DNA from: Barthelona sp. PAP020
Taxonomy: Eukaryota
Assembly (NCBI GenBank): GCA_040182905.1
Contig: JARQWU010000024.1
Span: 1-64,000, forward strand
DNA: 64,000 nt
Reading direction: 5' to 3'
Positions 122 to 49,927 of this stretch are shown here, piece by piece. The position numbers and the translations under genes are program-made. How positions within the stretch are numbered: position 1 is the stretch's first letter; every line of letters begins with the position of its first letter. The notes under the pieces are model-generated. The model did not search any database, was not told where the DNA came from, and saw only the letters and a list, made by a program, of their open reading frames with translations.

Positions 122-314
122 TATTAAAAAAGTTAAGTAAATTGTGAGTATGATTTGTTATTTGTTGTGTTATTGAGGAATTTTTTGAAAAAATTCCTGC
201 ATAATTTAATCATATTTTTCAAAGGTTTATTATTAGATTACAAATACATATTTGACACAATTCGTGACACAACAATCTCTTTCAAATTTAATTTATTTTT
301 TTTTTTTCTCTCGA

Positions 315-2297: not shown

Positions 2298-3139
2298 GAT
2301 TAACTATTTTTTCTTTGTTTTTCAAAGTTTGACTGGTTTTTCCCCTTTTTTTTGTATATCGTGTGGCACTCATGATTGCTTATTGAGATGTTAACATGTG
2401 TTTAGTGATAAATTTGTTGTTATTTTTTTTTTTTTTTTTGTTTTTTTATAAAGGATCATTTGCCTTGCGTTATTCAACAGTAGAACTAATTGGTTATTTA
2501 CAACAACTTTTCTTCAATGTTGATTTGCAATTCATTGAGAGTTTAACTACTTGGTCCAGTTGTAAACCACCTACGTTTATTCATAGGCAAAGTTGAAAAA
2601 CTCATTCAAGAAATTTTTCAGCAAAAAAGAAAAGAGTGGCCGAAATCCAATCTTGATGATCCAGTGTGAGAATTGTAAAAAAAATTTCTCAACCCTATTG
2701 CCCTTTGTATTTTATTGAATTTCTTCTTTAGAATGTGTTTCTTTGAAAAGAAACTTCTTCACAAAAGAAGACCATTGAACCAATTAACATTTGTAGAGTA
2801 GCTCTTTTGACCCAATTATCTCTGAACAGTAAAAAAAAAAAAAAGGAAGAACGATTCAGTAATGTTTATGATGATTTGAGTTTAATCAATTTCTGCCAAT
2901 TCAAAAAATATTATCAACAAGGAAAGACCGTAGATTTTCGGACAATGACAACATTAGACAATGTACTGATCTATTGTAGGGGGTAAATTGACCTTTCGTG
3001 CAGACCAGCTGCACCTCCACATTTATATTCCAAAAATTCAGACTTTTGTTATTGGAAAAGAACTGAGGAGTCTTCCTTGTTCAACAAATACAAAAAAAAA
3101 AAATTTCAATTTTTTTTTACAATTTTTCAACAAATATAA

Positions 3140-12502: not shown

Positions 12503-13281
12503 TATTGAAAAAGAAAAAGAAAAATAGAATTTTATCTACTGGTTCAATTACTGAATCCTTTCTTAGCGATCAAATTATTTCCTAAAATGTAATCTCTAAC
12601 ATGTTAAATTAACTTTATTCTTCTTTGAAAATATTTTTTAAACCTCCACACATATTTTTCAAAAAAAAAAAAATTCATCCTCCTCTCAATTTTTTTCAAA
12701 AAGCAAAAATATAAAAATGTTCAACAAAAAGAATTGGAGAAAAAAGGAAAATTTATTTTTTCATTTTTTCAACAAAAGATTATTCATATAATATTTAATG
12801 ATGATACTGATGCAATAAAATGAATAAATATCAAAGTAGAAAGAAAAAAAAAAATAAAGTGTTGTTATCAAAAAAAAAAAACAATTTTGAAAACATCTTT
12901 CTTTCAAATAATTTTGTTAGTTCTTTTATTCAAAGAAAGGAAAATTAGACTTCACCATTTTTTCTTTGTGAAATTGTTAATTTAAACATTTATCAAATTT
13001 TGCAGTAATTTCCATCAATCAAAAACAAAACAATGATTAATTCTTTCAAACATTATGTTTTTTCGTAGAACACAATGAATTTTGTTCTACAATAAATACC
13101 TATTTTAAAAGCCTTCTAATCCCCATAATAACAACAATTATTTTAAATAGAAATCTAACCTTACGTTAAAAGAGGCTTTTAACCATTTAAAATTCAATAA
13201 GGGATCCAAAATAAAAGACTTATTAATTTATATATTATAATCACAAACTTTTTAATTGTACACATACACATAAAAAAGAAT

Positions 13282-17632: not shown

Positions 17633-18025
17633 ATGGTGCAATCAAAGGATTTATTTAATTCCAACAAGGAAAAAAAACCAATATCAAAAGTCAAACAATC
17701 AAAACAAAAAAAATTATCCAAAAAAGGAGGTGCCAGGGAAGCTGGTAAGAGAAAAATTGTTAAAAAAACAAAATCTGAAATTAATAGACAGTTTGACAAG
17801 GCAATTACTGAACATATTGAACAGGAATTAATATCTCAAGTTTCAAGAAAAAGATTTTCTATTTATAAGGTTGATCCAAATCACGTTGTGAATCAAACCG
17901 ATAAAACCACAAAAAAATATAAAAAATCGAAAGCGAAAGTTCAAAATGAGCCAGAAGAAAAACAAAGAGTTGAGGAAGAAGAAGTTGTTTATAATAATGA
18001 TGAACCAGTATGGATGGATGATTAA
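17633..18025 (+). CDS. Small basic protein, UPF0390/C19orf53 (Leydig cell tumor 10 kDa)-like
   Basis: MVQ...F start, Lys-rich region, KKGG, then I...IEQEL pattern resembling the C19orf53 family. Confidence 0.55.
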
Positions 18026-24065: not shown

Positions 24066-25347
24066 ATGTCAAGCAAAAACACACAAGATCAAAACAAAGC
24101 AACAGACGAAAATTGGAAAGATTCAATTGATAGAAATCCTGTTGATGAACGCCCTCAAACTGAAGTAATTTTTCATTTATTTTTTCAAATAACTAACAAT
24201 TTAGGATGTAACTGCAACCAAAGGTTTATCATTTGCAGGTTGGAATTTAAAAAAAGAATTACAAATGGGAATTTATGCAAAAGGTTGGGATGAGCCTTCC
24301 CCTATTCAAGAAGAAGCAATTCCACAAATATTATTAGGTAATGATGTATTAGCTCGAGCCAAAAATGGTACTGGAAAAACTGCTGCTTTTTGTATTCCCG
24401 CTTTAGAACATATTAACACTACTTTAGATTTACCTCAAGTTATTATTATTGAGCCTACCAGAGAATTAGCATTTCAAACGTCTAAGGTGTTGGTTGATTT
24501 GGCAAAATATATGGAAGATACCAAAATTATGGTTACAACTGGTGGTACCAATGTTCAAGATGATCTTGAAAGATTGAAAAATCCTGTTCATATTATTGTT
24601 GGTACTCCTGGTAGATTGAAACATCTTTTTGAAGTTAAACGTCTAAGAGCAGACAATGTATCGATGTTTATTTTGGATGAAGCTGATGCTTTGTTAGGAG
24701 ACTCTTTTGTTGATGATATTGAAGTTATTATTAGGAAATTACCTCGTGAAAGGCAAATTCTATTGTTTTCAGCGACATTCCCTGTTTCTGTGGCAACATT
24801 TCAAGAAAAGTGGATGGATACAGACACTAGAACTGTAAAAACAATGAATGAATTAACCCTCATTGGAGTTGATCAATTTTATGCATATATTAACGAAGGT
24901 CAAAAGCTTTCTTTGTTGCGTCAAATTTTGACGGACATTCCTTTTAATCAATTGGTAATTTTTGTAGCATCTGCCAAGAGAAGTCAAGAATTGGCAATTT
25001 TAATGACAAATTGGGGTATTAGAACTCTATTTATTCATTCTTTCATTGAACAAGATGAGAGAAATCGTATTGTACATGATTTTCGTGAAGGTATATTCAG
25101 AATCTTAGTTTGTACTGATTTGTTTACTCGTGGTATTGATATTGCTGGTGTTGATTTAGTGATTAACTTTGATTTTCCCTCAAGTAAAATGGACAGACCC
25201 GGTTCAAAATATTTGCATAGAATTGGTCGTACCGGTAGGTATGGACATTTTGGGAAAGCTATCAGTTTCATTACTGATGATGATACCGCCAATTTATTTA
25301 AAGTTGAAAAACAGTTGGGAACAAAGATAGGACCTTTAAAGTTGTAA
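24066..25347 (+). CDS. DDX6: DEAD-box RNA helicase DDX6/Dhh1; exons 24066-24164 and 24205-25347
   Basis: Removing the 40-nt intron restores RPQTE|DVTATKG, typical of Dhh1. Motifs PSPIQEE, ARAKNGTGKT, DEAD, SAT, YLHRIGRTGRYGH. Confidence 0.93.
24165..24204 (+). other. Spliceosomal intron, 40 nt
   Basis: GTAATT...ACTAACAATTTAG; removal joins two ORFs in frame into a conserved Dhh1 motif. Confidence 0.93.
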
Positions 25348-26555: not shown

Positions 26556-26716
26556 TTTGTTATTCCTTTTTGTATAAATTAAACCAGTTTTTTTATTCTT
26601 TCAACTTTTGTTTGATTTATTCATTGTTTGATCAAATGAAGATAAAACCAAAATAAATACCAAATAAATGATAATGAAAAAAAAATGACAAAATAATTTT
26701 ATTCAATATCGTTCAA

Positions 26717-27598
26717 ATGATTTTAACAAAAAAATTAGGTGAAGGAACATACGGTACTGTCTATGAAGCACATGATCCAGATAATATTGATGAAAAATTT
26801 GCAGTGAAAAGGATTGAACCAAAACACCCTGATCATGGAATGTCACCAACTGCTTTGAGGGAAATTGCAATATTAAGAGCATTACCACCTCATCCAAATA
26901 TTGTTACATTATATGAGGTTAAACATTGTGGAACGCATTTGGATTTAGTTTTTGAATTATGTGAATGTGATTTGCGACAATTAATGGAATCTAGAGAAAC
27001 TTTATTGGATTTTGAAGATATTGCACGTTTTACATATCAAATGCTTTTAGGAATTCAACATTGTCACAATCACCGAATGATTCATCGTGATTTAAAACCA
27101 AAAAACCTATTATTTAATGATGGAGTCTTAAAAATTGGTGATTTTGGTTTAGGAAGAATTTTTGACATTCCTTCTGAAATGTACACTCCTAACGTTGTGA
27201 CTCTATGGTATAAACCTCCTGAATTATTGCTGGGTTCTGATGTCTACACAAAATCTTTGGATGTGTGGGGAATTGGATGTATTTTTGCTGAAATGGTTCT
27301 TGGAAAACCATTATTCGGTGGACAACATCATTATCAGGTTTTGTTCATGCAATTTGAAAGATTAGGAACTCCTACACCTGCTACTTGGCCCAATATTACC
27401 AATTTGGAACATTATAATCCTGAATTTCCAAAATGGAACCCCAAACCTATCTCGGAAATGGAGGAAAGATTTCAACAACTTGGAAGAATTGGAACAGACT
27501 TGTTTTATCGATTTTTAACTCTTGATCCTTCTCAAAGAATTACAATAGATGATGCTTTAAAACATGAATTCTTTGTTCAATATGGATTAACAGAATGA
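26717..27598 (+). CDS. Cyclin-dependent kinase (CDK1/2/CDKB-like; SPTALRE)
   Basis: LGEGTYG, SPTALRE helix, HRDLKPKN, DFGLGR, YTPNVVTLWY. Confidence 0.93.
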   Translation: MILTKKLGEGTYGTVYEAHDPDNIDEKFAVKRIEPKHPDHGMSPTALREIAILRALPPHPNIVTLYEVKHCGTHLDLVFELCECDLRQLMESRETLLDFEDIARFTYQMLLGIQHCHNHRMIHRDLKPKNLLFNDGVLKIGDFGLGRIFDIPSEMYTPNVVTLWYKPPELLLGSDVYTKSLDVWGIGCIFAEMVLGKPLFGGQHHYQVLFMQFERLGTPTPATWPNITNLEHYNPEFPKWNPKPISEMEERFQQLGRIGTDLFYRFLTLDPSQRITIDDALKHEFFVQYGLTE

Positions 27599-27644
27599 AC
27601 AATGTAAATTTTTTCTTATCAATTTTTTTTTGTTTGTGTTAAAT

Positions 27645-28334
27645 ATGAGCGAAATTGTAGGTGATAATTTTTTTAATTTAATGTTCTAACCATAATAGTA
27701 TGAACAAATATTAACAGTTGTACCAAATGCAAAATTATACAAAGCTGGTCAAAGATCCAGTGCTCAAGGAGGATATCGTTGTTCAGAATGGACTGAGAAC
27801 GATTTCATTTCAAAGGCTAATGTTGATGTATTGGGAGTTGGTGAAAATGTGATCATCAAATTAACGGACCCTGACACTCAAACTTTAATTTGTAAATGTC
27901 CAATTAGGAACAATTTATCTGAAGTTGTTGAAAGAGCTATTGATTCTTCAAGATATTATGTTGTTGTTGCTGAAGATGATGAAACGGGAAGAAAGATGAA
28001 CGTTGGTTTGGGTTTTAACACCCGAAATGAATCTTTCAGCTTTTGGGCAGCAATTACTGATTATATTAAAAGAAGAACTGAAATTGAAAATGCAAAGAAT
28101 GAGGCTGAGACTAGTCAAAATGTTGATTTTTCTCTAAAAACTAATAAAAAAATATCATTAAATATCGGTTCGACTGTTAGTGCTGGTTCAACCCCCAAAA
28201 AAGCATCTGGAAAAAAACTTAGCAAATTAACTTTACGAAGTGGAAATCGAAGTATGAAAACTCGGACTACAATAGATGATAAGGAAGAACCTTCAAAAAA
28301 TCTTAGTAATGATATTGATTTGTTGAATTTATAA
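27645..28334 (+). CDS. NECAP: NECAP (adaptin ear-binding coat-associated protein); exons 27645-27656 and 27699-28334
   Basis: Spliced N-terminus MSEI|YEQILTVVPNAKLYK...GYRCSEW, then VERAIDSSRYYV and GLGFNTRNESFSF (PHear domain). Confidence 0.88.
27657..27698 (+). other. Spliceosomal intron, 42 nt
   Basis: GTAGGT...TTCTAACCATAATAG. It contains an in-frame TAA, so it must be removed to link ATG 27645 to the NECAP frame. Confidence 0.8.
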
Positions 28335-28370
28335 AACAGTGAAGTGTAAATATATATTCTAGAGTTTTAT

Positions 28371-28410
28371 TTTTGCCCTTTATGCAATTTGAAAAATTTG
28401 AAGGGCAAAA
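28371..28410. repeat. Perfect 10-bp inverted repeat with 20-nt spacer
   Basis: TTTTGCCCTT (28371-28380) and AAGGGCAAAA (28401-28410). Confidence 0.7.
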
Positions 28411-28472
28411 CTTTTGGAAACTTCAAAGAATATTATTCATTGATTGATAATTTTTTTTTTAATTTTCAAAAG

Positions 28473-28616
28473 GTATGTTTTGTGTGTTATTTTTCATGAT
28501 GAATATGTAGTCCGTGTTTCTGATGTTACCCATGAAGAGAAACATTACCACCTTTTGGTGTTCTGATTTTTTTATTTTTATTATTATATGTTTTTTTGAA
28601 TCTTTACTAATATTAG
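28473..28616 (+). other. Putative 144-nt snoRNA-hosting intron
   Basis: AG|GTATGT donor at 28473; TACTAATATTAG branch point/acceptor ending at 28616, in the same layout as the two other introns; brackets the snoRNA. Confidence 0.65.
28492..28570 (+). ncRNA. U18: Box C/D snoRNA, U18/snR18 orthologue
   Basis: C box ATGATGA 28496-28502; guide GTCCGTGTTT then D' CTGA 28520-28523; C' ATGAAGA 28532-28538; D CTGA 28563-28566. The guide is antisense to conserved LSU rRNA GAAACACGGAC. Confidence 0.9.
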
Positions 28617-28824
28617 TTATCATTATTTCTACAGTCTAAATTGTTTTGCAATCATAAAAATCAATGTTTGTGTTTTTGTTTAAAATAGGTGAATATTTTC
28701 TTTAGATTTGTTAATTTTTATTTTCAAAATAATTCAATCATTGCAACTATTTTTGCAAGTTTTTTTGGACAAATAAAGTATTTCATGTAGAAAAAAAGAA
28801 TTTTTTTTTCCATTGTAACGATTT

Positions 28825-29409
28825 ATGAGTCAAAATAAACGATCCTTGCAGTTTAAAATAGGATTATTGGGTAATATGCAAGCTGGAAAAACGACCCTAA
28901 TGGTTAAATATGTTCAAAACAGATTTGATTCTTCATACATTGCAACATTGGGTGTTAATTTTATGGAAAAAGCAGTTACTTTAAAAAATGCAGTTATTAA
29001 TTTCTCAATATGGGATTTAGGTGGATCAAAAGACTTTTCACAAATGTTGCCTTTGGTTGTATCTGAGGCACATGCTTTATTATTTCTATTTGATTTAACC
29101 AACAAAAGTTCACTATGGGCTATTAAAGAATGGTATTATCAAGCGAGAGGACATAATAGAACTGCTATACCCATATTAGTTGGTACCAAATATGATTTGT
29201 TTTGTGAATTATCTACAGAGGAACAAGCAGAAGTGACGACTTTAGCTAGAAAGTATGCAGCAGCAATGAAAGCACCAATTATTTTTTGTTCATCTGCAGT
29301 TGGTGTAAATGTAAATAAAATATTTAAAATAGCTTTATCGAAGGTCTTTCAAATTCCTATTAACGTTCCAAAAGTTTTAGAACCAGGTCAACCTATTATT
29401 GATTATTAA
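28825..29409 (+). CDS. TEM1: Tem1/Spg1 small GTPase
   Basis: KIGLLGNMQAGKTTLMVKYV, TLGVNFMEK, FSIWDLGG, MLPLV, IKEWY.QARG.N, VGTKYD, PIIDY C-terminus without CAAX. Confidence 0.93.
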   Translation: MSQNKRSLQFKIGLLGNMQAGKTTLMVKYVQNRFDSSYIATLGVNFMEKAVTLKNAVINFSIWDLGGSKDFSQMLPLVVSEAHALLFLFDLTNKSSLWAIKEWYYQARGHNRTAIPILVGTKYDLFCELSTEEQAEVTTLARKYAAAMKAPIIFCSSAVGVNVNKIFKIALSKVFQIPINVPKVLEPGQPIIDY

Positions 29410-29571
29410 TTGTTGAATAAATAAAATTTTTTCTTTTTTTCTTTGGTGATTCATTCTTTTGTCAAAACAAAAAAATCAAAAATTTGAAAACAAAAAGTGA
29501 AAAATAATTTACAAAAGAGTGAATATGATCAATTGGCTTCACACTATTTTCTTAATGAAAAAAAATATCAC

Positions 29572-30138
29572 TCAAGAATTATCTTGGGTATCTGTATCTG
29601 TTTCTGTTGTGACCGTTGAATTTGTTTCAGTTGGGACAGTTAAATCATTAGGTATCATTGAATTGAATAAATTTAAGATTCTTGAAAGACCTTCTGCAGG
29701 TTGAGCCTTTTGCATTGTAATTTTCACACCATATTTGCTTGTTTGATCTGTACTTCTTTCATGATTTGATGCAGAAGAAAATTGTGTATTAAATTCAACA
29801 TTAGACGTCTTTAATGATCCTTCAGAGGTTGAACTTGTCTTATAAGTCTCAGTTGTTGCAGAAGTTACTTCCATTTGAAAATCAACAGTAAGTTCATCGA
29901 TGCTTAATGTTGGAATGTTCACAAGAGCTGCTGCGGGAACTGCAAAACTTAAACCTTTTCCATTTGGCAATTTAATTTGAAAATTTTCAGTTGTTTTTGC
30001 AAGTTCTTGAACTATTGGAACACTTGCAAGGGCTAATTCATTTTGGGCTTCTGCGGCAGCCAACAACGGTGCAGAAAATAGCTGCTTCATTGTTGTTCCA
30101 AGAACACCTTCACTAGCTGTTGATACATTATTGGCCAT
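29572..30138 (-). CDS. DUF2589-like protein (standalone)
   Basis: LFSAPLLAAAEAQ, VP...LVNIPTLSIDELTVDFQMEV, Ser/Thr-rich hairpin, RSTDQTSKY.V......PAEGLSRIL: the pattern I recognise for DUF2589. Confidence 0.8.
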   Translation of the reverse strand: MANNVSTASEGVLGTTMKQLFSAPLLAAAEAQNELALASVPIVQELAKTTENFQIKLPNGKGLSFAVPAAALVNIPTLSIDELTVDFQMEVTSATTETYKTSSTSEGSLKTSNVEFNTQFSSASNHERSTDQTSKYGVKITMQKAQPAEGLSRILNLFNSMIPNDLTVPTETNSTVTTETDTDTQDNS

Positions 30139-30379
30139 TCGATTAATTAAAAGAAATAATTAAAATTGGATGAAAATGTCACAGAAAAAAAAAAATGGTT
30201 TGATAAACAAATACCAAAATTATACAAAATCACAACCAATTATTAATTTTATAAAGTACGCATACAAATTCAACAAAAACTATCAAATTGAAAAAAAAAT
30301 TAAGATTTTTGAACAAAGAAAAATTGACCATTTTATTCATAAAAATAACCAAAAAGAAAGAAACTAATAAGAAAAGACT

Positions 30380-40362: not shown

Positions 40363-40817
40363 ATCATTTATGAAAATATAATTTTTTATTGAATCAAACA
40401 TTTTTCCCTTACATCTAAAAAAAAACAAGAAAGTGAAGGGTGAGGGTTGAAAACTTTTTCTGATAAAAATCTTCCAATTTATCACAATGTGAACCCAAAA
40501 AGAGAAATGAAACAAAAACAAAAATTCTTTTCAAAAGAAAATTTTCAATGTGTTAGAATCTTGTTTCTTTTGAAAAAAAAATTCTATTTTTTAATCTCAA
40601 TGAAATTGAAATTGTATGTGCAAATCCACAAAAAGAGAATTCTCCAAACTTCCAATTGAAAAAATTTTTTCTTATTTTTTGTTTATCTTGATTTTATGAA
40701 TATCTAAAAAATTTTTAAATGATTCATAAGTTGATGAAAATATATATCTGAAATAGGAGAAAAAAAAAAATTTATCTCCTGTAAAAATTTTTATCATTTC
40801 GTTTTACATATTTTCAA

Positions 40818-43409
40818 ATGTCCAGTGGTTCATTTGGCCGTTTAGCTGCTTCTCGTTCTAAGATTAGAGGACCTTCTCCTGGTTCTCTGAGTGCTTCACC
40901 TATCCTTGCCCAAGAATTGATGCAAAAGGAATCTTTTTCTCAAAAATCCGATATTCAAAAGTTATTTACCTATAACTTGAAGTATATTTTAAATCGTGAT
41001 GCTGATTCATTGGATAATTGGGCTGCTTTTATGGCAACTGCTTTTGCAGTTCGTACTAGGTTACTTGATGATTGGAATAGAACCCAAAAAGCCATTGAAA
41101 AGAAGAAAGCTAAAACTATCAATTATTTATCATTAGAATGGTTAATGGGGCGTGCACTTCAAAACAGTTTATTAAACACTGAACTTTTGCCTAAATTCAG
41201 AACCGCTCTCATGGACTTTTCATGTGATTTGGAAAGAATTGCTGATGAAGAACATGATGCTGCTTTAGGTAATGGTGGTCTTGGACGTCTTGCTGCCTGT
41301 TTCATTGATTCTATGGCCACACTTTCTTTGCCTGCTTGGGGTTATGGTCTTCGTTACACATATGGTATGTTCCGTCAAAAAATTGAAAATGGTTATCAAA
41401 TTGAAATCCCCGAATATTGGTTAACATATGGTAATCCTTGGGAAGTTAAGCGTCTTGATGTTAGTTACACAATTTCTTTTGGTGGTCATGTTACTCGCAC
41501 AATGAATGCTGATGGAAAGTGGAAATTCAGTTGGGAAGGAACTGATCAAGTCACAGCTGTTGCTTATGATACTCTTGTTCCTGGTTATAAGACTGGATGC
41601 TGTTTAAATATTCGTCTTTGGGCTGCTAGACCCGTAAAAGAGTTTGATTTACAATCTTTCTCTCAAGGAGACTACTATGCTCAAGTAGCTTTACGTCAAG
41701 ATTCTGAAAATCTTACTTCTGTTCTTTATCCCAACGATAACACATATGCCGGTAAGTGTTTGCGTTTGAAACAAGAATATTTCTTTGTTTCTGCTACTCT
41801 TCGTGATATTCTTGATCGGTTCAAAAAGGTTAACGCTCCTATTACTGATCTTCATAAGTTCCAAACCATTCAACTTAACGATACTCATCCTGCATTGGGT
41901 GTTCCTGAACTTATGCGTATTCTTCTTGATGAGATGAATTTAGAATGGTCTGTTGCTTGGGATATCACTAAGAAAACTTTCAATTACACAAATCATACAG
42001 TTCTTCCTGAAGCTCTTGAAAAATGGCCTGTTCCTATGTTTGAACAAATCTTACCTCGTCATTTAGAAATCATTTACGAAATTAACCATCAACACCTTCA
42101 ACAAGTTCGTGCATTGTATTCTGATAATCTTTCAAAACTCCGTTCATTATCTATTATTGATGAAAGTGGTCCTCGTTATGTACGTATGGGACATTTGAGT
42201 TGTGTTGGTTCTTCTCATATCAATGGTGTTGCTGCTATTCACACTGAAATTGTTAAATCTCGTGTTTTTGCTGATTTCTATCAAATGGATCCTGAAAAAT
42301 TCCAAAATAAAACTAACGGTGTTACTCCTAGAAGATGGGTTAAGCTTTCTAACCCCAGATTGAGTGCTGTTTTGACTCGTAAGTTAGGTTCTAACTCATG
42401 GATTAAAGATTTGTCTTTAATTAAAAAATTAGAAAAATTCGCTGATGATGCTGAAACTCAAAATATCTTCAGAATGGTCAAAAAGGATAACAAGGATCGT
42501 TTAGCTGCTTATATTAAAGCTAATCTTGACATTGATGTCAATCCTGAATCTCTCTTTGATATTCAAGTTAAGCGTATTCACGAATACAAGCGTCAACTCT
42601 TAAATTGTTTAGGTACTATTCATCAATATCTTTCTATTAAGGGTATGACTGCTGAACAAAAGAAAAATGTCGTTCCTCGTGTTACTATCATTGGTGGTAA
42701 AGCTGCATCAGGTTATGATATGGCCAAACGTATCATCAAATTGATTAATTCGATTGCTGAAGTCGTTAATGTTGACCCTGATGTTGGTGACCTTTTAAAG
42801 GTTGTGTACATTCCCAACTATTGTGTTTCAAATGCTGAGCTTATTATTCCTGCTTCTGATATTTCTGAACACATTTCTTTAGCTGGTACTGAGGCTTCTG
42901 GTACTGGTAACATGAAATTCGTCATGAACGGAGGTCTTCTTTGTGGTACTGATGATGGGGCTAATATTGAAATTTGTGAAGAGTGTGATTATTCAAATCA
43001 TTTTATCTTTGGTTTAAGAACTGATGAAATTGATGACGCTTTCCATAGACAAGCTATTGGAGAAATTCCCACTGATCCTAGACTTCAAAAAGTCTTTGAT
43101 GCTGTACTTTCAGGAATGTTTGGTCATGTTGACGTTTTTGCCCCTATTATTGCTGCTATTACTGGTGCTGAAGACAGATATCTTGTGAAAGCTGATTTCC
43201 CCGCCTATTTAGAAATTTGGGATCAAATTGATTCTTCTTATAGAAATCAAGCAGAATGGGCCAAAAAGTGTATTTTGTCTGTTGCCAGAATGAGCAAATT
43301 CTCTTCTGATCGTACCATTAGTGAGTATGCACAAGATATTTGGGCCATTGAACCTGTTGATGTTCCTACCGATGATATCAAGGATGTTGCTGTTTCTCCT
43401 TCTTCTTAA
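40818..43409 (+). CDS. Glycogen/starch phosphorylase
   Basis: DAALGNGGLGRLAACF, IQLNDTHP, YTNHTVLPEALE, KTNGVTPRRW, EASGTGNMKF (PLP lysine), FSSDRTI. Confidence 0.98.
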   Translation: MSSGSFGRLAASRSKIRGPSPGSLSASPILAQELMQKESFSQKSDIQKLFTYNLKYILNRDADSLDNWAAFMATAFAVRTRLLDDWNRTQKAIEKKKAKTINYLSLEWLMGRALQNSLLNTELLPKFRTALMDFSCDLERIADEEHDAALGNGGLGRLAACFIDSMATLSLPAWGYGLRYTYGMFRQKIENGYQIEIPEYWLTYGNPWEVKRLDVSYTISFGGHVTRTMNADGKWKFSWEGTDQVTAVAYDTLVPGYKTGCCLNIRLWAARPVKEFDLQSFSQGDYYAQVALRQDSENLTSVLYPNDNTYAGKCLRLKQEYFFVSATLRDILDRFKKVNAPITDLHKFQTIQLNDTHPALGVPELMRILLDEMNLEWSVAWDITKKTFNYTNHTVLPEALEKWPVPMFEQILPRHLEIIYEINHQHLQQVRALYSDNLSKLRSLSIIDESGPRYVRMGHLSCVGSSHINGVAAIHTEIVKSRVFADFYQMDPEKFQNKTNGVTPRRWVKLSNPRLSAVLTRKLGSNSWIKDLSLIKKLEKFADDAETQNIFRMVKKDNKDRLAAYIKANLDIDVNPESLFDIQVKRIHEYKRQLLNCLGTIHQYLSIKGMTAEQKKNVVPRVTIIGGKAASGYDMAKRIIKLINSIAEVVNVDPDVGDLLKVVYIPNYCVSNAELIIPASDISEHISLAGTEASGTGNMKFVMNGGLLCGTDDGANIEICEECDYSNHFIFGLRTDEIDDAFHRQAIGEIPTDPRLQKVFDAVLSGMFGHVDVFAPIIAAITGAEDRYLVKADFPAYLEIWDQIDSSYRNQAEWAKKCILSVARMSKFSSDRTISEYAQDIWAIEPVDVPTDDIKDVAVSPSS

Positions 43410-43504: not shown

Positions 43505-46500
43505 TCAGTCACTTACTTTAGCGACCAATTTTTGTTCCAATCTGGCTAACCCTTCACTTGGTTCTTGAGCTTTGAATCCAATATGAATTTTAGTTGACCT
43601 TGAATCCTTTCCTTCATATTGAGAAGAATTTTGAATATCCACTCCCAAAGAATAACTTTCCTCTCCCTCTTTTGTTTTTTGATATCTACCACTAGATAGG
43701 GCCATTTGCAAATCCAATTCAACTTCATCAACAACCAAATTCTTGTTTGATACCATTGACATCAAAGGAACATTGATTTGACGATTCTCAAGACTAAAAT
43801 CATCAGTATCTGCATTTCTATTTGCTTGATCAACACTTAAAGATACTTGTTTTGGTCTGTAAGCAACAACATCGGTTAATTCCCACTTTTCTAATTGTTC
43901 TTCTGACATTCTATCCATCAAAGAAATCATTCTTTCCAAATTAGACAGCTGAGCTGACCGTTGACTATCCAATACTGATTGATAGATAGCTGTCAACATA
44001 CCATCAAAAGCAGAAATTGGTTGAATTTGTTCGATTGAATCAGATTCAACAACAACATCTTTTTTATTGGCATTTGTGAAAGAATCAAGCATATTATCCA
44101 CACTATTTTGGACATTATCAACATCAAATTCATTTTTCTTCTCTTTAACTTCTTCTTCCTTCTTTTCAAGAACATCTTTGTTAATTTTTTCAATAAAACT
44201 AATTGTTACACCATAAAGATTATTATTGAAAGAATTGGATATTGCCACAATCCATGAGAGAATATACATCAATAATACAATATAAAAATATGCTCTACTG
44301 ATAGTTTGGAAATTTTCTCCATATTGTTCTGAAGTTAAATAAATAGATGAAGGGTTTAAATAAGTATCTTGAGATTTGACCAAAAACAACGTCCCAACAA
44401 ATTCACTAATGAAGGTTATAGTCATGGTTATAACGTAAGCTGTTTTATCAGTTAAGACGATACCTAATATGAATGAAACAATGTACAACAAAGTGGCAAT
44501 ACCTCTAATTATTGTACCAAAAGACATATAGAGTCCTAAATCCATGTTCAAAAAGAAAGAAGTAAACACAAAAGGCAGTAAGCCCGTAAATCCTTTGATG
44601 AACAAAAAGAAGACAGAAGCAAAGGATTGAGATTGTTTTATAGAATGAATAGTGTTTACCAAATGAGGTTGGTCAAAATATGATATTCCAAACAAAATCT
44701 TATATGTCGAATTCATCAATTCATAATCCTGATCATGTTTCCTTGCTTTAAAATTATCAAAATTACTTTCATTTTCAAGATCTGGTGATAAACAATTATA
44801 TGAAGGAACAAAGAAAATCAAGGCAACGGCTTGAATGATCAAATATATTAACTGAAGAATATTATCAATCTTGTAATAACGGACATCGCTCAAACATTGA
44901 GCATCTCCCGAATCCAAAGAACTTAAAGATAACAGGAGGGTAATCATAACCAAGAAGAAAGTCAAAATAAAAGCAGATCTGAACAGTAATACTCTTTGTT
45001 CTTTATTCAATATCGCCTTTTCCCATTCTTTATCCAAAAATTTAACAGTAGTTCGTTGTTCCTCAAATATATATTTTTGTTTCTCAAAATCACGAATCAA
45101 TGTGGAGAGACATAAATCCCTCGAATATTTATCCAAAATATTACAATTCCAAGTGTCAACTAAATACTTTTCATATTCTTTCAAAGTTTCCAAATCATTA
45201 TCTTCGTATATGATTTTATGACTGGCTTTATCTTCAGCACTGTACAAAACTTGGTTTGTCCTTTCAATACTGACCCAATGTCTAACTTTATCCAACTTTT
45301 GTCCATATATATTACTAATTCTATAATCAGCAACAGTATGTCTAACGCTAGAATTCAATTCTTCCACAAAAAGCTTTTCTCCTAACATATGCAAATTAGT
45401 CTCGGGACATTTATACATGAAAATTAAATCATGCTCAGATAAATTGAATGAAGGGTCTTTTTTCTTTGCTTTGATCAAATCTTTTTGGAATTCCTTCGTT
45501 TTTAAAAGATCTTGTAAGGCCTTTTCATAATACTTTTTGAACTCTGGTGACATTTCTTCATATGATAGCAATTTATCAGCAAATTCTCTCATACTCTTCA
45601 AATCTTGTTGATATATATTGTCATCACTGTATGTTCTTTCATATCCTTGGAAGATTTCACCCAAAATAACCTTTAATATTTCATTTTTATTATAAATATT
45701 GATTTGTGAAACTATTCCTTCCTCATACTTTCCAATTAACTCATTTAATTCGTGAGTTTCATTGTGAATCGATTCAATCTGCCCATATTCATAAAATCTG
45801 AGTATCATGCGCAGATAACGCTCTAATTCATTAACTTCATTGAATCTATTTCCTAATTGACTTAAAAGGTCATCAAGTTCAAATATGTTTTCATTCGCTG
45901 AATCTAAATTTTCAGATTTCAAATGCAACAATCCTTGATGTTTTAAATACTTGCTGAACGTGTCATAAAACATATCCATGTATTCTATTCTATTTAATAA
46001 TGTGAAAGAATGGTCACTTTTCAATAATGAAAAGAATTCAAGATAATTTCTCAAACTTCTGAGCATCAAAGGACACTTGGCAAAATAAGTGTTAAATATT
46101 TTATTCTTATCATACAAACGGAAAAAGAAATCTCGCAAATTTTCTTTTTCTTCATCGTTCATTTCTTCAGTCATTCTCATCAATTCAATTCTAACACAAC
46201 CATTCTCATCCAATCCATCAGGAATCAAATATCTATCAGCCAAGTGCAACACGTTATCTATTGTAATAAGTGCATCCAACTTTCCTTGATAGTGAAACAA
46301 CAAATCAGTGAACATATGAGATAATACATTACCCAAGTAAGTATCTTCATCGTTATCAACAGAACCAATATTATCTATCAATCTGGAACGAATCAATTGC
46401 AGTTCAGCAAGAGAGAGTTCTTCCATATCTGCTAAACATGATTTGATTTCATCCAACACATCAATTTTGAAATGATTCACAGAATTTAAATCTCCTTTTT

Positions 46501-48607
46501 TCGTTTGAGACATTTTGGTGATAAATTCCTCAATAGTCAAATCTGTTCCATCATTTGTAACATACAAACTAACAATGTCCTTGACTAATTGAATGGGGGA
46601 ATCAATAGCCATCTTTTCTTTGATAAATTGCTGAATTTCAACATTATATCCTTCTGTATATAACAACAAATACATATCATCAACAAAATCACTGATGAAT
46701 TCTGTTCTTTTAACATTGTCCTTCATAAATCTGACATCTTCATAGAAAAATAAACATTCATGCAATAAATCAAAGATATGAATTTCAACTTCATCATTCA
46801 TAATGTCCAACATGTTGCTCTTAATGTTATTATACAAATCATCAACACATTTAAACTTCATGCGATCGTCTGTTCCGTCTGCACTAACATTAAAGAAAAA
46901 ATAGTGCAAAATGTGCTTAACCAAGAATTCAGTAAACAGTTGTTTTTGCTCATTCACTTGTTTTGACAAAGCAGAAGGAAAATGCAACAAATTCAAATTC
47001 TGATGATTCAAATCTTGGAATTTTTCTTGATAATACATGAATTTATGGAAAATTTTACTGAATATCTCATTCATACGCTGTTTTTCAAGGGAAATTTGTC
47101 GTTCTGCAAGAACACCTTCTCTATATATAGTTTCAACATATCTGTAACTGGATATATAAGGAATTGTACCTAAAAGTCCAAACAACGCTCCAGACACTTG
47201 TAAAAACAACCTGATCATGTTAAACATGGTAATGGGACATGATGAATTAACTCCAAAGAAGTCAAAAATTGCAACAAATAAAATTAAAAAATTAACAATT
47301 ATCAACAGATAAGATTGATAATGGCTATCCTTTATTTGACACCTGAATGGAACAACGTGATTTTCACTAAATGTTGAGTGCAATTCTAACAATAACTCTT
47401 GTAATTCTGAACTTGAAAAAACAGAAAAACCAAAAAGGTTGTTAACACTGATTGGTGGAATTTTATAAGGAGTATCTGCCTTACAATATACCAATTGAGC
47501 GATAAACTCTTCATCAGATCTAAATTTAGACTTAGTTTCAAACTTTTTGGCACCTGGATAATTATACAATCCAACAACAACAATAGCGTCAATAGAATTT
47601 TCTTCATCACCATTTATATCATTAGCAGTATAACCAATCAATCTTGACTTAATACCAGATCTCAAATAATTGATAAAACCAATCATGAAAACAAAAAGCA
47701 GGAAAAAAGTGAACACAGTGAAAAACCAGCTTGAGTTAAGGCTACTTAAAGAAAAATCTGTTGCTTTATCATAAATATCAAACCCATTTTTGGCACAAGT
47801 GAGAACCAAAAAGAAAAATGCAGTGAATAATGAATATTTAAATATTTTGACGTGTAAAATCAGATCGTAGTACGACTTTAATATCAGACAATCAGGAGGT
47901 GATAAAACAGAATTAGTTTGAAACTTGTTCTTCAAACATTGCCTGTAATTAGGCCTTCTATTGGCAACAGGTACAGGATTTAAATCATCTGTGCTTGTTT
48001 CTTCCTCACTTTGAGATATATTACTGTCATTGTCCCCTCTTTCTTGTTTAAAATAATCAGTATCTTTATTTTGGGCAACATCATCAAACTCTACAGGTAA
48101 AACATCCATAGGTTCCGATGGTAGAATACCAAAGAGTGAAACAGCCATACCTAAAAATAAACAGAATAAATATCCAAGAAAAAATATATGAGAATAACCT
48201 AAATCAGAAAAATTGACAAGATATTGTTCTATTTGTGTCATACATACAAATAAACTTAAGACAAAAACGATTAACATAAATCCAGGTGACTTTTTCAATC
48301 TTTCACGTTTATCACTAATATTAAAAACATCACTTTCATCATCTCCACATATATATCCAAAATTTAGATCTTTTCTCAACTTAAACGAATATTTTAACTT
48401 AAATCCATCCGAAATAGCCGCTTTAGTCATTTCGGATTCCTCAAATTTTTTCCTTTTTTTAAAATATGAACTAACATATTCATCAAAGTCCAATTCTTTT
48501 TTCATAGTCGCAACACTTTGGTTTTTGAGTGATGATTGGGCAGTTTGCATCATAATACTTTGTTGCCGAAACATACCTTGTCTCTGCTCCGATTCAGGAG
48601 AAGACAT
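43505..48607 (-). CDS. Polytopic membrane protein with C-terminal DUF2589-like domain
   Basis: Two clusters of hydrophobic helices flank a ~700-aa helical region. The last ~170 aa read FDGMLTAIYQSVLDSQ...VPLMSMV...L.VDEVELDLQM...KIHIGFKAQEPSEGLARL. Confidence 0.75.
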   Translation of the reverse strand: MSSPESEQRQGMFRQQSIMMQTAQSSLKNQSVATMKKELDFDEYVSSYFKKRKKFEESEMTKAAISDGFKLKYSFKLRKDLNFGYICGDDESDVFNISDKRERLKKSPGFMLIVFVLSLFVCMTQIEQYLVNFSDLGYSHIFFLGYLFCLFLGMAVSLFGILPSEPMDVLPVEFDDVAQNKDTDYFKQERGDNDSNISQSEEETSTDDLNPVPVANRRPNYRQCLKNKFQTNSVLSPPDCLILKSYYDLILHVKIFKYSLFTAFFFLVLTCAKNGFDIYDKATDFSLSSLNSSWFFTVFTFFLLFVFMIGFINYLRSGIKSRLIGYTANDINGDEENSIDAIVVVGLYNYPGAKKFETKSKFRSDEEFIAQLVYCKADTPYKIPPISVNNLFGFSVFSSSELQELLLELHSTFSENHVVPFRCQIKDSHYQSYLLIIVNFLILFVAIFDFFGVNSSCPITMFNMIRLFLQVSGALFGLLGTIPYISSYRYVETIYREGVLAERQISLEKQRMNEIFSKIFHKFMYYQEKFQDLNHQNLNLLHFPSALSKQVNEQKQLFTEFLVKHILHYFFFNVSADGTDDRMKFKCVDDLYNNIKSNMLDIMNDEVEIHIFDLLHECLFFYEDVRFMKDNVKRTEFISDFVDDMYLLLYTEGYNVEIQQFIKEKMAIDSPIQLVKDIVSLYVTNDGTDLTIEEFITKMSQTKKGDLNSVNHFKIDVLDEIKSCLADMEELSLAELQLIRSRLIDNIGSVDNDEDTYLGNVLSHMFTDLLFHYQGKLDALITIDNVLHLADRYLIPDGLDENGCVRIELMRMTEEMNDEEKENLRDFFFRLYDKNKIFNTYFAKCPLMLRSLRNYLEFFSLLKSDHSFTLLNRIEYMDMFYDTFSKYLKHQGLLHLKSENLDSANENIFELDDLLSQLGNRFNEVNELERYLRMILRFYEYGQIESIHNETHELNELIGKYEEGIVSQINIYNKNEILKVILGEIFQGYERTYSDDNIYQQDLKSMREFADKLLSYEEMSPEFKKYYEKALQDLLKTKEFQKDLIKAKKKDPSFNLSEHDLIFMYKCPETNLHMLGEKLFVEELNSSVRHTVADYRISNIYGQKLDKVRHWVSIERTNQVLYSAEDKASHKIIYEDNDLETLKEYEKYLVDTWNCNILDKYSRDLCLSTLIRDFEKQKYIFEEQRTTVKFLDKEWEKAILNKEQRVLLFRSAFILTFFLVMITLLLSLSSLDSGDAQCLSDVRYYKIDNILQLIYLIIQAVALIFFVPSYNCLSPDLENESNFDNFKARKHDQDYELMNSTYKILFGISYFDQPHLVNTIHSIKQSQSFASVFFLFIKGFTGLLPFVFTSFFLNMDLGLYMSFGTIIRGIATLLYIVSFILGIVLTDKTAYVITMTITFISEFVGTLFLVKSQDTYLNPSSIYLTSEQYGENFQTISRAYFYIVLLMYILSWIVAISNSFNNNLYGVTISFIEKINKDVLEKKEEEVKEKKNEFDVDNVQNSVDNMLDSFTNANKKDVVVESDSIEQIQPISAFDGMLTAIYQSVLDSQRSAQLSNLERMISLMDRMSEEQLEKWELTDVVAYRPKQVSLSVDQANRNADTDDFSLENRQINVPLMSMVSNKNLVVDEVELDLQMALSSGRYQKTKEGEESYSLGVDIQNSSQYEGKDSRSTKIHIGFKAQEPSEGLARLEQKLVAKVSD

Positions 48608-49494: not shown

Positions 49495-49693
49495 TAAATA
49501 TTTTGTGTATTTATTTATTTATTTTTTCAATGAGTATTTTTGGATTGAATAGTAAAGCTTCTCATTAATAAAATAAGTGTAAGTAGTTTTAATTGCCTTG
49601 TTGGAAAAGAAAATGAAAGAAGATCTTAAGTTAGCAACATTTACGAAGTTGGTATTGAAGCATAGTACTATTCCTTATTTCTCTTTTTTATTA

Positions 49694-49927
49694 ATGGTTC
49701 TTTTTGGTTCATTGATAATAATATTAATAATAGCAATAGTAATTATTGTTCTATACAAAGCAAAAAAAAGGTCATCAAATGATCAAACACCAAAAATTCA
49801 TTTGGAAACTGTCAAATATCAAGGAAAAGAAGAAAAAGTAATATTTGGAAAAGAGCTAAAATCATTTGAAAAGACTTCTCCCAAACAACATAATATCATT
49901 AAAATAGATATATCTAACATTGTGTAA
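49694..49927 (+). CDS. Small single-TM protein
   Basis: MVLFGSLIIILIIAIVIIVLYKAKKR: hydrophobic anchor plus basic stop-transfer; ATG at 49694 after a T-rich tract. Confidence 0.5.
   Translation: MVLFGSLIIILIIAIVIIVLYKAKKRSSNDQTPKIHLETVKYQGKEEKVIFGKELKSFEKTSPKQHNIIKIDISNIV

What the first reader, a model, noticed from the sequence alone, without database searches (positions are those of the whole stretch)
28473..28616. U18/snR18 snoRNA nested in an intron of a non-coding or 5'UTR host
A complete C/D'/C'/D snoRNA (boxes 28496-28566) carries the guide GTCCGTGTTT before D'. By the D+5 rule it would methylate the A in LSU rRNA AAAC[A]CGGAC, the site guided by yeast snR18 and vertebrate U18. It is bracketed by AG|GTATGT and TACTAATATTAG, giving a 144-nt intron versus 40-42 nt for the other two. 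The flanking exons show no evident ORF, so the host is either a non-coding RNA or the Tem1 5'UTR. Known U18 hosts are protein-coding introns (yeast EFB1, human RPL4).
Basis: partly seen in the sequence, partly recalled or inferred. Interest (0 to 1): 0.7.

Follow-up and report, generated by a model that had tools for sequence, protein, structure and literature searches.

The report
Intron-encoded U18 snoRNA in a metamonad
An anaerobic protist with very few introns carries a standard ribosome-maturation guide RNA (U18) between splice-site motifs, so it is likely cut out of an intron of a short, likely non-coding transcript, a layout common in fungi and animals but not reported from its probable relatives Giardia and Trichomonas.

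Summary
The sequence features are all there. Boxes C/D'/C'/D (28496-28566) and the D' guide make a U18/SNORD18 snoRNA. Rfam scores it 30.8 bits, under the family cut-off of 41, but a profile of 36 other U18s finds it at E 8e-7 (next hit 4.2). The guide pairs 10 bp with an LSU site present in 49 of 49 eukaryotic rDNAs; this organism's own rRNA was not available. Donor and branch/acceptor motifs bracket it (chance about 4e-4 to 9e-4) and resemble the window's two 40-42-nt introns, though the branch-to-AG spacing is shorter. No RNA reads were available, so splicing is inferred. The host is probably a short non-coding RNA; Tem1 has its own initiator-like T-tract. What is new is the lineage: one gene tree groups the organism with Barthelona and Chilomastix, and Giardia snoRNAs are intergenic. 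An upstream H/ACA-like hairpin is a weak lead only. Verdict: real, a new member of a known kind, moderate interest.

The parts
28491..28570 (+). U18/SNORD18 box C/D snoRNA (Rfam match limits; mature ends not mapped)
   Evidence: 30.8 bits, below gathering 41; leave-one-out E 8.4e-7
28496..28502 (+). box C
28510..28519 (+). D' antisense guide; T28515 is the D'+5 base; the base before it (28509) is A where 76 of 80 fetched matches have G
28520..28523 (+). box D'
28532..28538 (+). box C'
28545..28560 (+). small hairpin (28549-28552 with 28557-28560) before box D; also a possible second antisense element to LSU about 170 nt downstream of the U18 site, fitting only 1 of 37 rRNAs
28563..28566 (+). 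box D
28473..28616 (+). predicted 144-nt spliceosomal intron
   Evidence: not seen in RNA
28473..28478 (+). 5' splice site motif GTATGT
   Evidence: matches Giardia and S. salmonicida donors in PMC6679479
28605..28616 (+). branch motif TACTAAT (predicted branch A 28610) fused to acceptor TAG; 28607-28618 is also a perfect palindrome
28632..28634 (+). alternative acceptor CAG after a pyrimidine run (would give a 162-nt intron)
   Evidence: inference
28451..28472 (+). T-tract plus TTTTCAA, like the sequence just before many start codons here: predicted transcription start region and very short exon 1
   Evidence: inference
28362..28430 (+). strong hairpin with internal loop and an H-box-like AAAGAA (28425-28430); H/ACA-like, role unknown
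28617..28660 (+). predicted exon 2, no ORF; 3' end not mapped; ACA at 28631-28633
27645..28334 (+). upstream DUF1681 gene (NECAP-like, name recalled) with a 42-nt intron 27657-27698: control intron and rival host
28825..29409 (+). downstream Tem1/Spg1 GTPase gene, complete as read: rival host
24165..24204 (+). 40-nt intron of a DEAD-box helicase gene: control intron

Best explanation
This is a U18/SNORD18 box C/D snoRNA gene lying between a donor motif and a branch/acceptor motif, likely spliced out as a 144-nt intron from a short, likely non-coding transcript, and predicted to guide 2'-O-methylation of the conserved LSU adenosine that U18 marks in yeast, plants and humans. Shown: boxes, guide, family match, splice motifs, no ORF in the flanks. 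Inferred: transcription starts near the T-tract at 28451-28469, giving an exon 1 of a few bases; the spliceosome removes 28473-28616; the lariat is debranched and trimmed to about 28491-28570 under the C/D proteins; the spliced exons are a by-product; fibrillarin methylates the A paired to T28515.
For: Family. Target site in 49 of 49 eukaryotic LSU stretches; U18 targets Am647/Am660/Am1313 in PMC3511168. Splice motifs: joint chance 4e-4 to 9e-4; TACTAAY occurs once in 6,365 non-coding bases on both strands; two same-style introns restore frames. Box D to branch motif is 40 nt here, against 45-61 nt in 7 fetched U18 loci where both could be read (10 examined). Both flanks are U-rich, with no terminal stem. 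Non-coding host: no ORF over the junction; in 23 of 25 genes a T-tract ends 0-46 nt before the ATG, Tem1's ends 15 nt before its ATG, and another ends 12 nt before the donor; the DUF1681 stop is followed by TGTAAA at 28345, a motif type seen after 11 of 26 stops. Precedent for a 12-nt first exon in Spironucleus.
Against: No junction read and no own rRNA. Rfam score is under the cut-off. The branch motif ends in T where both controls have C, and branch-to-AG is 3 nt against 5 and 6 nt; known species range from 2 to 4 nt. Donor to box C is 23 nt, against 40-107 nt in 7 of the 8 loci with a readable donor and mostly 41-60 nt in Neurospora. The splice model rests on two control introns. By duplex energy alone the 10-bp guide is no better than shuffles (16 of 40). 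T-tracts and TAAA motifs discriminate poorly: T5+ tracts follow 18 of 26 stops, and the WRTAAA motif also precedes 7 of 26 starts.
Confidence: 0.55

Rival explanations
1. The snoRNA is transcribed on its own, as in Giardia, from the T-tract just upstream, and the splice-like motifs are chance, a dead intron or a 3'-processing signal.
For: Giardia snoRNAs are intergenic with AT-rich upstream elements. 28600-28611 resembles the Giardia 12-nt processing motif at 10 of 12 positions (compared by eye). The branch/acceptor is part of a palindrome. Spacings differ from the control introns.
Against: Joint chance of both motifs is under 1e-3. The Giardia motif lies at or a few bases from the mature end, here 34 nt away, and two positions that its consensus fixes are broken.
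Confidence: 0.2
2. The intron is real but lies in the 5'UTR of the Tem1 mRNA, tying U18 output to a cell-cycle GTPase.
For: Same strand, 208 nt upstream of the ATG; a 5'UTR snoRNA intron is known in Candida and a 5'UTR intron in Spironucleus.
Against: Tem1 has its own T-tract 15 nt before the ATG, and a copy of the 15-nt upstream element at 28715-28729; the spliced leader would hold two out-of-frame ATGs after the junction.
Confidence: 0.1
3. The intron lies in an extended 3'UTR of the upstream DUF1681 mRNA.
For: Same strand, donor 138 nt after the stop; 3'UTR snoRNA introns are known in Candida; no promoter is proven.
Against: A poly(A)-signal-like TGTAAA lies 11 nt after the stop, and neighbouring genes here are often only 50-300 nt apart.
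Confidence: 0.07
4. The host is itself a guide RNA: the upstream hairpin is the first half of an H/ACA snoRNA whose second hairpin and ACA box are joined only by removal of the U18 intron, and it would pseudouridylate SSU U1495 (E. coli numbering; yeast U1758).
For: Hairpin z -3.4, 0 of 200 shuffles. An ANANNA box lies 14 nt from the pocket top. Of 603 conserved U columns only that decoding-site U fits, in 8 of 8 SSUs; shuffled pockets find some site in 41 of 1000 trials. The spliced length to ACA+3 is 132 nt.
Against: No Rfam H/ACA match (16.4 bits, E 3.3). In any longer transcript the pocket strand pairs instead with 28463-28472 (P 0.72-0.97). The second hairpin is weak (z -1.4, 4 of 60; 26 of 500), has no pocket and ends 8 nt before ACA. 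With H and ACA forced unpaired the first hairpin's lower stem still does not form. The SSU set was cut at a motif that includes the target, which favours it. No pseudouridine at that site turned up (listing only). AT-rich hairpins of similar energy occur in other gaps.
Confidence: 0.08

Closest known systems
U18 / snR18 / SNORD18 (Rfam RF00093, clan CL00047 with plant snoU18 RF01159)
   Same: Box order and spacing, identical 10-nt guide plus D', same predicted LSU adenosine.
   Different: Guide position 11 is A rather than G; a longer C'-D segment with a small hairpin (a similar segment is seen in fungal-type loci L004, L032, L078); score below the gathering cut-off; host is not RPL4 or EF1-beta.
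Mono- and polycistronic non-coding snoRNA host transcripts of Candida and Neurospora (PMC5033589, PMC2780460); UHG/GAS5 type in animals
   Same: One C/D snoRNA in a spliceosomal intron of a transcript with no coding potential.
   Different: Here in a probable metamonad with 3 introns in about 26 genes; very compact (23 nt from donor to box C); splicing not shown; U18 rather than snR50 and the like.
Giardia and Trichomonas snoRNA genes and introns (PMC11427974, PMC3228867, PMC6679479)
   Same: Intergenic position, AT-rich upstream element, GTATGT donor, branch fused to acceptor, 40-42-nt short introns.
   Different: Giardia snoRNAs are described as intergenic, and intronic ones are called highly unlikely in both species; no U18 homologue is named in the Giardia table read.

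Membership tests
Box C/D snoRNA | RUGAUGA box C and CUGA box D at the ends, internal C'/D' | tested here: met
Box C/D snoRNA | 10-21-nt antisense element ending at D or D' | tested here: met
   10 Watson-Crick pairs to a site in 49 of 49 LSU stretches of other eukaryotes
Box C/D snoRNA | expressed, bound by fibrillarin/Nop56/Nop58/Snu13, directs methylation | not testable with these tools
   no run listed
U18/SNORD18 | Rfam RF00093 score at or above gathering 41 | tested here: not met
   30.8 bits, E 0.00083 locally and 0.097 window-wide. Several fetched U18-pattern loci also miss it (SNORD18 passed at 10 of 20 loci), so the cut-off is strict for divergent members
U18/SNORD18 | homology to other U18 sequences | tested here: met
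   profile of 36 others, E 8.4e-7 against 4.2 for the next hit; those 36 were picked by a pattern taken from the window, so the test is only partly independent
U18/SNORD18 | target adenosine present in the organism's own LSU rRNA | not testable with these tools
   no genome held
U2-type spliceosomal intron | GT donor, WCTRAY branch, YAG acceptor like the organism's other introns | tested here: met
   branch-to-AG 3 nt against 5 and 6
U2-type spliceosomal intron | removed from RNA | not testable with these tools
Non-coding snoRNA host gene | exons without coding potential | tested here: met
Non-coding snoRNA host gene | transcript separate from the neighbouring mRNAs | tested here: inconclusive
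   motif evidence only
Long metamonad introns shortened by base pairing (PMC6679479) | internal helix that brings the splice sites to 35-45 nt | tested here: inconclusive
   A helix 28493-28511 with 28583-28600 leaves about 36 nt; 1 of 200 shuffled flanks but 23 of 163 real U-rich flanks do as well, and it is not the best fold at 25 C
Box H/ACA snoRNA (upstream element) | first hairpin with pocket 14-16 nt before an ANANNA box | tested here: inconclusive
   met in isolation (P 0.99), lost in longer transcripts (P 0.02-0.27)
Box H/ACA snoRNA (upstream element) | second pocket hairpin followed by ACA | tested here: not met
Box H/ACA snoRNA (upstream element) | rRNA target at a known pseudouridine | tested here: inconclusive
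   one conserved U fits (p about 0.04); no report found

The most novel reading that the evidence does not exclude
A nested pair of guide RNAs: an H/ACA snoRNA split by a spliceosomal intron that itself holds U18, so that one splicing event matures both, with the H/ACA RNA aimed at an undescribed pseudouridine in the decoding site (U1495/U1758), in a lineage thought to lack intronic snoRNAs.
Probability: 0.07. Interest if true: 0.8.

Novelty: new member of a known kind. Interest (0 to 1): 0.4.

Why it matters
If spliced, it shows that intron-encoded snoRNA production, even from a host with no protein, exists in an intron-poor metamonad, where the literature I could search describes only intergenic snoRNAs. 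It would be a clean test of the idea that the few introns kept in stripped genomes are kept for their RNA cargo (PMC8476143), add an excavate data point for a LECA-age snoRNA family that changes hosts (PMC3511168), and imply lariat debranching and trimming in this lineage. Gene annotation would miss such hosts entirely.

Tried and rejected
No RNA holder was listed for 26600-30200; this is no evidence either way, and without run ids no reads could be laid. No genome is held, so the organism's rRNA, snRNAs and other snoRNA introns were out of reach. Viral-contig scans gave one hit each, both taken as chance (L001 by eye; L002 no Rfam match). No close relative of Tem1 exists in the protein collection (best about 60%), so a related-locus scan was not spent. 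Second (D) guide: 14 pairs only with the LSU variant found in 1 of 37 rRNAs, the D+5 base sits at the helix end, and shuffles did as well against L161 in 9 of 40; left open. Seven other pocket geometries gave no conserved site. U3, U5 or U6 as host: considered by eye from recalled motifs, no Rfam support. A coding exon joined to Tem1: no in-frame ATG, a stop at 28816, and homologues cover 92-100% of the protein in 119 of 120 rows. Mitrovich 2010 was not held. PMC5824354, PMC8860606 and the barthelonid genome preprint gave nothing usable in the passages seen. A search for an H/ACA RNA split by an intron found 0 papers, but its terms were narrow. No supplements were read; the snoRNA tables in those of PMC5033589 and PMC5824354 may list U18 in non-coding hosts.

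Full report
Setting. The window is 29.8% G+C and gene-dense, with about 26 genes and three intron-like stretches. No genome is held. The glycogen phosphorylase (40818-43409) has Barthelona sp. PCE as its third-ranked hit of 120 listed, at 53%. In a quick tree of 57 rows (56 of those 120 hits plus the window) it groups with Barthelona (SH-aLRT 98) and then Chilomastix (98). This is one gene with long branches and no metamonad-wide sampling, and neither Tem1 nor the DUF2589 protein listed a barthelonid. I therefore call the organism a probable metamonad.

The snoRNA. Boxes and guide are at the stated places. Rfam gives no hit at gathering level. SNORD18 is the top match at 30.8 bits both locally (E 0.00083) and across the window (E 0.097). 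A metagenome scan with a box C + guide + D' pattern returned 128 stretches (scan truncated), with 141 matches, 80 of them distinct and followed by a D box. I aligned 36 of these 80 with the window. A profile of the 36 alone finds 28495-28567 at E 8.4e-7, next hit 4.2; the 36 were chosen by a window-derived pattern, so this is only partly independent. The 14-mer guide + D' is expected 1.4e-4 times by composition.

The target. Eukaryotic rDNA was taken from 49 contaminating contigs (two checked by Rfam). All 49 carry AAACACGGAC followed by C, although the pattern allowed T; the site was the search motif, so this shows that it is widespread, not that it is universal. T28515, five bases before D', faces the second A block's lone A, the position tabulated as Am647 (yeast), Am660 (Arabidopsis) and Am1313 (human) in PMC3511168 (passages). 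The base before the guide is A here and G in 76 of 80 fetched matches, so pairing is 10 bp unless this organism's rRNA has changed. On energy alone a 10-bp duplex is not special (16 of 40 shuffles); the case rests on family identity. The segment before box D folds as a 4-bp hairpin. It can also form 14 pairs with an LSU variant seen in 1 of 37 rRNAs. Extra pairing is known for yeast U18, though next to the target site (PMC3116282, passages). This stays open.

The intron. Two short introns are secure by frame: 24165-24204 joins an ATG at 24066 to the helicase frame, and 27657-27698 joins an ATG at 27645 to the DUF1681 frame. A scan of 6,365 non-coding bases on both strands found 7 branch+AG motifs; only those two and 28605-28616 had a donor of the expected type at a plausible place, and one more had a weak donor. 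With the three introns masked, the chance of a donor within 60 nt upstream and a branch+AG within 100 nt downstream is 4e-4 (GTAWGT) to 9e-4 (four donor types). Against this: the branch ends in T, not C; branch-to-AG is 3 nt against 5 and 6, while Yarrowia has 2 and Giardia and Trichomonas 4 (PMC2483917, passages); and the motif is part of a palindrome. Box D to branch is 40 nt, against 45-61 nt in 7 of 10 loci examined; donor to box C is 23 nt, against 40-107 nt in 7 of the 8 with a readable donor. Long metamonad introns fold to an effective 35-45 nt (PMC6679479, section 8). A helix here would leave about 36 nt, but 23 of 163 real U-rich flanks do as well, so I do not count it. No RNA run was listed. 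I put the intron at about 0.75.

The host. No ATG-led frame crosses either candidate junction. In 23 of 25 genes a T-tract ends 0-46 nt before the ATG. Tem1's ends at 15 nt, and another ends 12 nt before the donor, inside a 15-nt element repeated at 28715. The upstream gene has TGTAAA 11 nt after its stop. These motifs are weak in an AT-rich genome, but together they favour a separate short transcript with a tiny first exon; a Spironucleus mRNA starts 12 nt before a 5'UTR intron (PMC6679479, passages).

Host comparison. Of 52 loci with at least 1 kb of DNA, shared frames grouped 10 with RPL4, 7 with EF1-beta and 3 with RPL37. Pfam on 80 selected frames confirmed RPL4 at 7 loci, EF1-beta at 6, RPL37 at 2 and an EF-Tu-family gene at 1. 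Of 20 loci scanned by Rfam, 9 held other snoRNA families beside U18, and L016 held several U18 copies; whether those clusters lie in introns was not determined. So U18 moves between hosts, as PMC3511168 argues for snoRNAs in general (passages). Non-coding intron hosts, 5'UTR and 3'UTR hosts, and transcripts with both exonic and intronic snoRNAs are documented in Candida (PMC5033589, passages), Neurospora (PMC2780460, passages and section 7) and other fungi (PMC3596301, passages).

What is not in print, as far as searched. Giardia snoRNAs are described as intergenic (PMC11427974, passages and section 6), and intronic snoRNAs as highly unlikely in Giardia and Trichomonas (PMC3228867, passages). 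Searches (listings only) showed no paper on intronic snoRNAs in other metamonads; only 1 of 30 listed papers (113 matched) held the word snoRNA. The library lacks most subscription papers. Two earlier notes of this scan describe non-coding intronic snoRNA hosts in other protists (unchecked), which makes the layout look widespread.

The upstream hairpin. 28362-28423 folds into a stem-loop-stem (z -3.4) with AAAGAA 14 nt from the top of the internal loop. That loop pairs 6+4 bases around one of 603 conserved uridines, in SSU helix 44, in 8 of 8 SSUs; 41 of 1000 shuffled pockets and 33 of 1000 random pairs also find a site (first run, 0 of 60). The numbering U1495 = U1758 is from PMC5754804 (one passage); placing the site there is my recall of the 16S sequence. 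After splicing, an 11-bp stem can span the junction and an ACA follows. But that stem is weak, a competing hairpin takes the pocket strand in longer RNAs, Rfam gives nothing, and among 990 non-coding windows two other regions fold as strongly. It is a lead, at about 0.07.

Verdict. A real U18 (about 0.95), likely intronic (about 0.75), likely in a stand-alone non-coding host (0.55 overall). The mechanism is ordinary; the interest lies in the lineage. New member of a known kind, interest 0.4.

Noticed in passing
window 2298-3139: An 840-nt gap with no long ORF and two well-folding minus-strand segments (about 2480-2620 and 2960-3085), the second with an Sm-site-like AATTTTTGG (3030-3038, minus) followed by a GC-rich stem-loop; no Rfam match of note. 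Possibly an unknown non-coding RNA or a frameshifted gene.
   Followed up: partly
window 29572-30138 (-) and the C-terminus of 43505-48607 (-): Two DUF2589 domains; the first has only 3 homologues at 34-36%, one named as a Sphaerochaetaceae bacterium. Likely acquired from bacteria; the second is fused to a large membrane protein.
   Followed up: partly
window 24165-24204 and 27657-27698: Both short introns lie near the start codon and have non-standard donors (GTAATT, GTAGGT); their 40-42-nt length equals that of short Spironucleus vortens introns.
   Followed up: partly
window 28457-28471 and 28715-28729: A 15-nt direct repeat (93%), a possible initiator element; the second copy is 95 nt before Tem1 and is followed by a small TTGCAA palindrome pair.
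   Followed up: partly
window 141-220, 13021-13180, 40511-40590: AT-rich inverted repeats in other intergenic gaps.
   Followed up: no
window 17633-18025 (+) and 49613-49927 (+): Short ORFs (130 and 104 aa) that fill apparent gaps; the second has a hydrophobic stretch.
   Followed up: no
L048, L063 (RPL37), L005 (EF-Tu family), L016 (tandem copies): U18 hosts other than RPL4 and EF1-beta.
   Followed up: partly
L022:657-732 and L071:969-1038: EF1-beta-hosted U18 copies with T at guide position 11, so loss of the eleventh pair is tolerated elsewhere.
   Followed up: no
L131-L179: 49 contigs of prokaryote genome records carry a eukaryotic LSU motif; L161 and L171 are confirmed eukaryotic rDNA. 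Contamination.
   Followed up: partly
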